Positions 1-342 of a stretch of 36,642 nucleotides of DNA are shown here, one piece after another. The notes under the pieces were generated by a model. That model was not told where the DNA came from and searched no databases. It saw nothing but the letters and a program-made list of their open reading frames with translations. The position numbers and the translations under genes are program-made. The stretch's first letter is position 1. The number at the start of each line of letters is the position of its first letter. Origin of the DNA: Candidatus Berkelbacteria bacterium (lineage in GTDB: Bacteria > Patescibacteriota > UBA1384 > JACPKC01); NCBI GenBank assembly GCA_016187225.1, contig JACPKC010000003.1:1-36642 (forward strand), in the 5' to 3' direction.

Positions 1-342
1 CGCGATCGATCTGAAATCAGTCACGGGCATGCAACATGGTCTGGGCGTGCCCAAGACGGCGATGCTCGACGAGTTGCTTGCGTGGTGTCGAGCCAACGCG
101 ATCGATCTGAAATCAGTCACGGGCATGCAAGCCGGTCTGGGCGTGCCCAAGACGGCGATGCTCGACGAGTTGCTTGCGTGGTGTCGAGCCAACGCGATCG
201 ATCTGAAATCAGTCACGGGCATGCAAAATGGTCTGGGCGTGCCCAAGACGGCGATGCTCGACGAGTTGCTTGCGTGGTGTCGAGCCAACGCGATCGATCT
301 GAAATCAGTCACGGGCATGCAAGCCGGTCTGGGCGTGCCCAA
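1..342. repeat. 96-bp perfect tandem repeat, units starting at 1, 97, 193 and 289 (last unit partial)
   Basis: Direct comparison shows the units are identical except for one codon: 35-37 CAT, 131-133 GCC, 227-229 AAT, 323-325 GCC. Confidence 0.95.

What the first reader, a model, noticed from the sequence alone, without database searches (positions are those of the whole stretch)
1..342. Perfect 96-bp tandem repeats differing at a single codon, a TALE-like one-variable-residue repeat protein
Four repeat units are identical at every base except one codon, where two or all three bases differ between variants: CAT, GCC, AAT, GCC, encoding His, Ala, Asn, Ala. That codon is followed by an invariant Gly, giving MQ-x-GLGVP. 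Neutral divergence would scatter changes, so a single fully substituted codon in otherwise identical repeats points to concerted evolution plus selection, or cassette shuffling, at one specificity position.

This is the pattern of TALE repeat-variable residues, and xG pairs such as HG and NG are known TALE RVDs. The fold here looks different. Each 32-aa unit resembles a SAP/HeH helix-extended-helix DNA-binding motif (MLDELLAWCRANAIDL..G), and the terminal unit ends KRKQELLKILKI. The gene is cut by the window edge, so more repeats probably lie upstream. The stretch is also visibly more GC-rich than the neighbouring genes.
Basis: partly seen in the sequence, partly recalled or inferred. Interest (0 to 1): 0.75.

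Follow-up and report, generated by a model that had tools for sequence, protein, structure and literature searches.

The report
TALE-like DNA-binding repeat protein, CPR bacterium
This is the tail end of a gene for a small protein made of near-identical 32-amino-acid repeats that differ at just one spot each; predicted 3-D models look most like the TALE proteins that plant pathogens use to read DNA one base per repeat, so it may be a new, unrelated family of programmable DNA readers from tiny-genome "CPR" bacteria in groundwater.

Summary
At window 2-385 (+ strand), 96-bp units are identical except at one codon (CAT/GCC/AAT/GCC, i.e. His/Ala/Asn/Ala). With three variable sites in 96, the chance that all three fall in one codon is about 2e-4. 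The gene runs off the contig start. Contig C7 overlaps the window's contig by 128 bp and carries the 5' part. Joined, they give a 295-aa protein: a conserved ~135-aa N-terminal domain, then 4 full 32-aa repeats plus a partial one. The variable residues read H,H,A,N,A, each in a MQ-x-GLGVP loop. The host is a Patescibacteria (CPR) genome of 835 kb. Homologs occur in metagenomes and CPR MAGs. Across the family the same single position is the one that varies (N, H, A, S, T, M, V, C). In a 9-repeat Uhrbacteria homolog, that codon changes at 2-3 bases while other codons change mostly synonymously. AlphaFold models show a helix-loop-helix solenoid with x in the loop between the helices. The structures that fit best are all TALE-likes (BurrH Z 13.7, TALE 12.9; Foldseek E 4e-5), ahead of mTERF (Z 9.2). 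There is no sequence homology to TALEs, no Pfam family and no published description. Best reading, inferred and not shown: a new TALE-like family that binds DNA in a sequence-specific way, with x as the residue that reads the base.

The parts
2..385 (+). 3' part of the repeat-protein gene in the window: repeat units 2-5 (the 4th in the window is partial) and the C-terminal tail; TAA stop at 383-385. The N-terminal domain and unit 1 lie outside the window on contig C7 (reverse strand, C7 ~1-631; locus L002:2-631:-), joined through a 128-bp contig overlap.
35..37 (+). variable codon CAT (His), loop residue x of unit 2 (unit 1, also His, lies on C7)
131..133 (+). variable codon GCC (Ala), x of unit 3
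227..229 (+). variable codon AAT (Asn), x of unit 4
323..325 (+). variable codon GCC (Ala), x of the last (partial) unit
341..385 (+). basic C-terminal tail NSKRKQELLKILKI and stop codon

Best explanation
This is a new family of TALE-like tandem-repeat DNA-binding proteins from Patescibacteria (CPR) bacteria. The protein has a conserved ~135-aa N-terminal domain and an array of 32-aa repeats. Each repeat is a short helix, then a loop (M-Q-x-G-L-G-V-P), then a long helix, and the repeats stack into one superhelix like a TALE array. By analogy with TALEs, the superhelix would wrap the DNA double helix and each loop would reach into the major groove. The one hypervariable residue x would then contact one base, so the ordered x residues (here H,H,A,N,A) would spell a short target sequence. 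The invariant Q just before x would play the structural part that TALE residue 12 plays. Shown: the repeat and its diversity at one position, the family-wide diversification at that position, the solenoid fold and its closest structural match to TALE-likes. Inferred: DNA binding itself, the one-repeat-one-base reading, and which loop residue touches the base. The protein has no secretion signal and no activation or nuclease domain, and CPR bacteria have no type III secretion system. So it most likely acts on the cell's own DNA, perhaps as a repressor or as a sequence-specific DNA-binding factor with a short target (about 5-10 bp, counting the N-terminal domain).
For: The units are identical except at one codon, and chance would rarely give that. 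Homologs share the architecture, and the same loop position is the one that varies in every family member with 3 or more units. The x residues across the family are N 43, H 28, A 22, S 7 and others. At DNA level the 9-unit Uhrbacteria homolog has six different amino acids at x, encoded by codons that differ at 2-3 bases, while other codons vary mostly synonymously: diversifying selection at that site. AlphaFold models are confident (pLDDT 88.6 and 82.9). Each unit is short helix, loop with x, long helix (DSSP). Structure searches of the 9-repeat model: Foldseek's 23 hits at E ≤ 1e-3 are all TALEs or TALE-fusion entries (best E 4e-5). The exhaustive VIA-align search over 48,161 PDB representatives ranks BurrH (Z 13.7), TALE 4hpz (12.9), TOD6 (11.8), PthXo1 (10.3) and AvrBs3 (9.8) above mTERF (9.2) and generic designed repeats (≤5.4). 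With the shorter model the ranking is the same. The protein is basic (pI 9.3), as expected for a nucleic-acid binder.
Against: There is no sequence homology to any TALE-like (no PDB sequence hit), so the link rests on fold and the pattern of variability only. The repeat is 32 aa, not the 33-35 aa that defines TALE-likes (PMC4787788). The loop is about 4 residues longer than a TALE RVD loop. The notes of the fold-search tool say that helical repeats can reach Z of about 13 from arrangement alone, and mTERF also scores fairly well. Many homologs have only 1-3 repeats, which is too few for a specific target by repeats alone. No DNA binding was shown. The mapping of x onto TALE residue 13 rests on helix boundaries in a predicted model, not on a structure with DNA.
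Confidence: 0.5

Rival explanations
1. An RNA-binding repeat protein with a one-repeat-one-nucleotide code, like PPR/PUF/mTERF-RNA binders. Here x would set the nucleotide read in single-stranded RNA, for example in processing or stabilising a transcript.
For: mTERF-family proteins, some of which bind RNA, are among the structural matches (Z 9.2). There is a weak hit to PORR, the plant organelle RNA-recognition domain, above the cut-off in one homolog (P0002, 26.9 vs 22.3 bits over 45 aa), and a faint PORR hit in another context. The protein is basic.
Against: The TALE-likes, which bind dsDNA, outrank mTERF in both structure searches. The PORR hit is short, partial and missing in most members. 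Each unit has two helices, not the three of the mTERF motif.
Confidence: 0.15
2. A TALE-like DNA binder in which x is the affinity-tuning residue (like TALE residue 12, 'strong' versus 'weak' RVDs) and the invariant G after it is the base-contact residue. All repeats would then read the same base (TALE G13 reads T), and the protein would prefer T-rich DNA with strength set by x. Alternatively it binds DNA largely without sequence preference.
For: x is mostly H or N (51 of 123), like TALE residue 12. The G after x is invariant in this subfamily. In a wider group of metagenome proteins with 37-aa repeats (P0050), two positions vary, N-[H/S/N]-[G/S/R/C]. The register is uncertain without a structure with DNA.
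Against: By helix boundaries in the model, x is the second loop residue, the place of TALE residue 13 (inference). Strong diversifying selection at x fits a residue that sets specificity better than one that tunes affinity.
Confidence: 0.15
3. A surface for binding proteins, with one hypervariable residue per repeat, as in antigenic or host-recognition variation. It would not bind nucleic acid.
For: Hypervariable repeat arrays are also used for protein recognition. CPR bacteria are episymbionts that must interact with their hosts.
Against: There is no signal peptide or anchor (N-terminus MRDGRSP...). The protein is basic (pI 9.3). All the best structural matches are nucleic-acid-binding superhelices.
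Confidence: 0.08
4. An assembly artefact: the repeat number or the variable codons were made by misassembly.
For: The assembly breaks inside the repeat (C7/C11 128-bp overlap). Logan contigs fragment over the array.
Against: Four independent runs contain the same unit sequences without alternative variable codons. Homologs show the same pattern independently. Only the unit count is uncertain, and contig depth hints at more units, not fewer.
Confidence: 0.03

Closest known systems
Xanthomonas TAL effectors (AvrBs3, PthXo1, dHax3)
   Same: Tandem helix-loop-helix repeats form a superhelix. The top Foldseek hits are all TALE entries (E 4e-5 with 9 repeats), and VIA Z is 12.9 for TALE 4hpz. One hypervariable loop residue per repeat sits between a short and a long helix. 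A conserved N-terminal region lies before the repeats; in the VIA alignment it spans the part of the TALE where the N-terminal cryptic repeats lie (4hpz 161-560; inference from aligned ranges only).
   Different: The repeats are 32 aa, not 34. There is no sequence similarity. One variable residue rather than the di-residue. The loop is longer (QxGLGVPD). There is no T3SS signal, NLS or activation domain. Arrays are short (1-9 repeats). Found in CPR bacteria, not plant pathogens.
BurrH / Bat proteins (Burkholderia/Mycetohabitans rhizoxinica)
   Same: Best structural match (4cj9, Z 13.7, 374 residues aligned). A bacterial TALE-like repeat protein that binds dsDNA.
   Different: BurrH has 33-aa repeats and a TALE-like RVD code, is sequence-unrelated to this family, and comes from a Betaproteobacterium.
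MOrTL1/MOrTL2 (marine metagenome TALE-likes, PMC4787788) and STAR proteins (PMC11417379)
   Same: TALE-like repeat proteins from environmental or non-Xanthomonas sources with fewer repeats (STAR: 9 repeats bind a 9-bp target with nM affinity).
   Different: These have 33-35-aa repeats with RVDs at 12/13 and follow the TALE code. No sequence link to this family was found; the family is not among those named in these papers.
mTERF / pTERF (prokaryotic mTERF-like, PMC11417379)
   Same: Helical-repeat superhelix that binds nucleic acid. mTERF is a structural match (Z 9.2). pTERF arrays also have 3-11 repeats in bacterial MAGs, and reordering the repeats changes specificity.
   Different: mTERF and pTERF units have three helices; these have two. 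TALE-likes outrank mTERF structurally. pTERF comes mainly from Bacillota.

Membership tests
TALE-like (definition of de Lange et al. 2015, PMC4787788) | Tandem repeats of 33-35 aa | tested here: not met
   32 aa per unit in this protein and its homologs.
TALE-like (definition of de Lange et al. 2015, PMC4787788) | Each repeat is paired alpha-helices, and the array forms a superhelix like the TALE array | tested here: met
   DSSP on AlphaFold models: short helix, loop, long helix per unit. Structure matches are TALE/BurrH above all other PDB folds (Foldseek E 4e-5, VIA Z 13.7/12.9). Handedness was not measured directly.
TALE-like (definition of de Lange et al. 2015, PMC4787788) | Base-specifying residue at repeat position 13, in the loop between the helices | tested here: inconclusive
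   The hypervariable x is the second loop residue after helix 1 in the model, the place of TALE residue 13. There is no structure with DNA to confirm contact.
TALE-like (definition of de Lange et al. 2015, PMC4787788) | One repeat binds one base, following the TALE code | not testable with these tools
   Needs SELEX, B1H or EMSA with x swaps.
TALE-like (definition of de Lange et al. 2015, PMC4787788) | Sequence similarity to TALE repeats (TALE/RipTAL/Bat/MOrTL) | tested here: not met
   Profile search of the family against all PDB chain sequences found nothing at E ≤ 10. No Pfam or NCBIfam TAL family hit.
[quoted passage not shown] | Repeat variable di-residue at positions 12/13 and a type III secretion signal | tested here: not met
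   Only one variable position, with an invariant Q before and an invariant G after. The N-terminus has no secretion features and CPR hosts have no T3SS; the T3SS point is inference from knowledge of CPR biology.
mTERF/pTERF | Three alpha-helices per repeat unit | tested here: not met
   Two helices per 32-aa unit in the models.
mTERF/pTERF | Structural similarity to mTERF superhelix | tested here: met
   mTERF 3n6s Z 9.2, below the TALE-likes.
   Units form a continuous helix-loop-helix solenoid. SAP_new25 was matched only at E 0.024, below its cut-off.
PORR (plant organelle RNA recognition, PF11955) | Pfam PORR domain over the whole protein at or above its gathering cut-off | tested here: inconclusive
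   Above cut-off only in P0002, over 45 of 326 profile positions. Weak or absent in other members.

The most novel reading that the evidence does not exclude
Patescibacteria (CPR) carry a sequence-unrelated, independently evolved family of programmable DNA-reading proteins with TALE-like architecture. A single residue per 32-aa repeat (x in M-Q-x-G) sets the base read, which would be a one-residue code distinct from the TALE di-residue. The arrays are diversified at that residue, possibly to retarget them among strains. The family extends to longer 37-aa-repeat relatives in Endozoicomonas and other metagenome bacteria.
Probability: 0.35. Interest if true: 0.8.

Novelty: new variant of a known kind. 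Interest (0 to 1): 0.6.

Why it matters
TALE-like programmable DNA readers are known only from a handful of proteobacteria, one marine metagenome and one fungus. A structurally TALE-like but sequence-unrelated family in CPR bacteria would be either a very old, deeply diverged lineage or an independent origin of one-repeat-one-base DNA reading. Either would be interesting for evolution. A single-residue code, rather than a di-residue, would add a new set of parts for genome-engineering tools. It would also point to a role in gene regulation in little-studied episymbiotic bacteria. The family is easy to test: a SELEX with x swaps would settle it.

Tried and rejected
The SAP/HeH reading was rejected: the units form a solenoid, not single HeH modules, and the SAP hit is below cut-off. 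The Sp-DndD Pfam hit (28.9 bits over 17 aa in P0005) was rejected as a short chance match: no Dnd genes are near any homolog. PORR was kept only as a weak lead. Several Pfam hits on long distant homologs were rejected as spurious: CHCH, EF1G, PLU-1, Ski/Sno; P0035, for example, is a bacterial Endozoicomonas protein. No conserved neighbour gene or operon was found: contexts include a glycosylation cluster, toxin-antitoxin genes, ChlI-like AAA+ genes, a transposase and DUF4143 ATPases. A search of our genome found only one copy, and none of 40 related CPR genomes of the same family or class carry it. Searches of phage and plasmid collections found nothing. NCBIfam and PADLOC give no family. A PDB sequence-profile search found no TALE or other match. 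Literature searches found no description of this family; the STAR, pTERF and MOON families of PMC11417379 do not match it. Logan contigs of four groundwater runs confirm the unit sequences but do not bridge the array, so the unit count could not be verified. The DNA complex of the model could not be predicted (complex prediction takes no DNA), so the mapping of x to the base contact stays inferred.

Full report
What is in the window. The window begins at position 1 of contig C11 of an 835-kb, 12-contig genome that is 99.4% complete. At 2-385, on the + strand in frame 2, lies the 3' end of a gene whose last ~120 codons are 96-bp tandem units (TRF period 96, 3.6 copies). The units are identical at every base except codon 34-36: window 35-37 CAT (His), 131-133 GCC (Ala), 227-229 AAT (Asn) and 323-325 GCC (Ala). 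The fourth unit runs into a basic tail, NSKRKQELLKILKI, which ends at TAA 383-385. If the three variable sites were spread at random over 96 positions, the chance that all three fall in one codon would be 2.2e-4. GC is raised in the repeats only (55.5%, GC3 65%) compared with the N-terminal part (48%) and the genome mean (48%).

The whole gene. Contig C7, read in reverse, ends in the same repeat and overlaps C11 by exactly 128 bp, as happens at k-mer graph edges. Joined, they give a 295-aa protein. It has a ~135-aa N-terminal domain (MRDGRSPAPEQ...), then a degenerate unit 0 (IQAIIALCNEYGVS), then 4 full 32-aa units and a partial fifth (LKSVTGMQ-x-GLGVPKTAMLDELLAWCRANAID). The variable residues are H,H,A,N,A. 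This is the only copy in the genome. Logan contigs from four runs of one groundwater study hold the same sequence, with no alternative variable codons, but none spans the array. Their depth over the invariant inter-unit segment is ~6.5 times that of the flank, against 4 copies expected. The tool warns that contig depth is not copy number, so this is only a hint that 1-2 units may have collapsed in assembly.

Host. The nearest ribosomal protein L9 is from Candidatus Berkelbacteria, at 49% identity. Relatives in the genome collection are all 0.6-1 Mb genomes. The organism is therefore a Patescibacteria (CPR) bacterium, probably of a lineage with few close relatives: its proteins are singletons at 90% identity.

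The family. A protein search with the N-terminal part finds 15 homologs at 39-61% identity, mostly from metagenomes. Every one has the same N-terminal domain followed by 1-9 repeats, and the variable residue sits in the same MQ-x-G loop. A genome-collection scan puts relatives in CPR MAGs (two Uhrbacteria paralogs, Saccharibacteria, Magasanikbacteria, Gracilibacteria) and in one Myxococcota MAG. None was found in 40 related CPR genomes, nor in phage or plasmid collections. A profile search reaches 132 more distant proteins. These include long proteins whose repeats carry the same [ST]ITGMQxG[KRL]G motif, and Endozoicomonas and metagenome proteins with 37-aa repeats and SSM[N/C]xG[K/R]G loops. 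Across the family, x is N 43, H 28, A 22, S 7, T 5, M 4, V 4, C 4. In every member with 3 or more full units, x is the position that varies; other positions are mostly invariant. At DNA level, the 9-unit Uhrbacteria homolog (L007) encodes six different residues at x, with codons that differ at 2-3 bases, while the other codons differ mostly synonymously. Our own gene has been homogenised apart from x. Gene neighbourhoods are not conserved: DUF4143/AAA_14 ATPases, phosphate-transport genes, a glycosylation cluster, toxin-antitoxin genes, a ChlI-like AAA+ gene and a transposase. Pfam, NCBIfam and PADLOC give no family. The only hits are short partial ones to PORR and to Sp-DndD, judged spurious.

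Structure. AlphaFold2 with an MSA gives confident models. For a 291-aa homolog, mean pLDDT is 88.6; for the 419-aa, 9-repeat Uhrbacteria homolog it is 82.9. The N-terminal domain is helical with two small strands. Each repeat is a 7-residue helix (LKSITGM), an 8-residue loop (Q-x-G-L-G-V-P-D) and a 13-14-residue helix, and the repeats stack. With the 9-repeat model, Foldseek's 23 hits at E ≤ 1e-3 are all TALE entries or TALE-based fusions (best 4hpz, E 4e-5, TMq 0.52). The exhaustive VIA-align search of 48,161 PDB representatives ranks BurrH (Z 13.7, 374 residues aligned), TALE 4hpz (12.9), TOD6 (11.8), PthXo1 (10.3) and AvrBs3 (9.8) above mTERF (9.2), MTERF3 (7.6) and designed helical repeats (≤5.4). 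The shorter model gives the same order. The N-terminal domain is aligned inside the part of 4hpz that carries the TALE N-terminal region (inference from ranges). The 'atlas' search adds an mTERF-like cluster. There is no sequence homology to any solved structure. This is the fold of TALE-like DNA readers, the closest among all folds in the PDB, but it is reached only by structure.

How it most likely works (inferred). In the models, x is the second residue after the end of the short helix, the place of TALE residue 13, which reads the base. The invariant Q before it would play the structural part of TALE residue 12 (H/N in TALEs, which braces the loop). If so, the superhelix would wrap dsDNA and each loop would place x in the major groove to read one base. 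The protein is basic (pI 9.3) and has no signal peptide, secretion domain or effector domain. It therefore probably binds the host cell's own DNA with a short target, about 5 repeat-read bases plus whatever the N-terminal domain contributes, perhaps as a repressor. This rests on fold and variability, not on binding data. The register is also uncertain: the rival reading puts x at TALE position 12 and the invariant G at 13, which would mean T-rich binding tuned by x. RNA binding (mTERF/PORR-like) remains possible.

Comparison and membership. The protein works like a TALE-like, but it is not a member as they are defined (PMC4787788). Its repeats are 32 aa, not 33-35. It has no sequence similarity to TALE repeats. 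It has one variable residue instead of the di-residue. The TALE code is untested. It is not a STAR, MOON or pTERF protein (PMC11417379): pTERF/mTERF units have three helices, and STARs have RVDs at 12/13 and T3SS signals. Novelty: a new variant of a known kind. It would be a sequence-unrelated, TALE-like family in CPR bacteria with a single hypervariable residue, if DNA binding is confirmed.

Limits. The number of units is not settled (assembly break, depth hint). There is no binding assay or DNA complex, and no residue-level structural alignment was available.

Noticed in passing
window 646-1950 (-) and contig C7 1626-2786 (-) (locus L005): The repeat gene lies between two AAA_14+DUF4143 ATPases that are 26% identical to each other. 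The exact sequence of the window ATPase, as called, is not in the protein collection, so its start may be mis-called.
   Followed up: partly
window 566-600 and C7:708-742: A 35-bp element (ATCAGATTCGGAAA(C)AAAAACCC-like) occurs twice. Here it lies between convergent genes; on C7 it lies near the 3' end of the coiled-coil gene L005:670-1488.
   Followed up: no
contig ends of genome G000: C7 and C11 overlap by 128 bp inside the repeat, so the assembly broke there. C6/C3 and C7/C12 end in shared sequences, which looks like other branch points of the assembly graph.
   Followed up: partly
window 230-322 (Logan contigs): The 93-bp invariant inter-unit segment has ~6.5 times the flank depth in two runs, against 4 copies expected. 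The array may be longer than assembled.
   Followed up: partly
proteins P0035 (Endozoicomonas sp. GU-1, WP_269674912.1), P0050, P0060: A broader family of long bacterial proteins (1,400-1,500 aa) with many 37-aa repeats and SSM[N/C]-x-G[K/R]G loops. Some vary at two adjacent positions (N-[H/S/N]-[G/S/R/C]). These may be distant relatives with the same design.
   Followed up: partly
locus L007/L008 (Candidatus Uhrbacteria MAG MGDX01): One CPR MAG carries two paralogs. The 9-repeat one sits in a cluster of polysaccharide and glycosyltransferase genes.
   Followed up: partly
genome G000 contigs C4 and C7: Two copies of 16S rRNA (C4:3859-5412 and C7:34295-35659), which is unusual for a CPR genome of 835 kb.
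   Followed up: no
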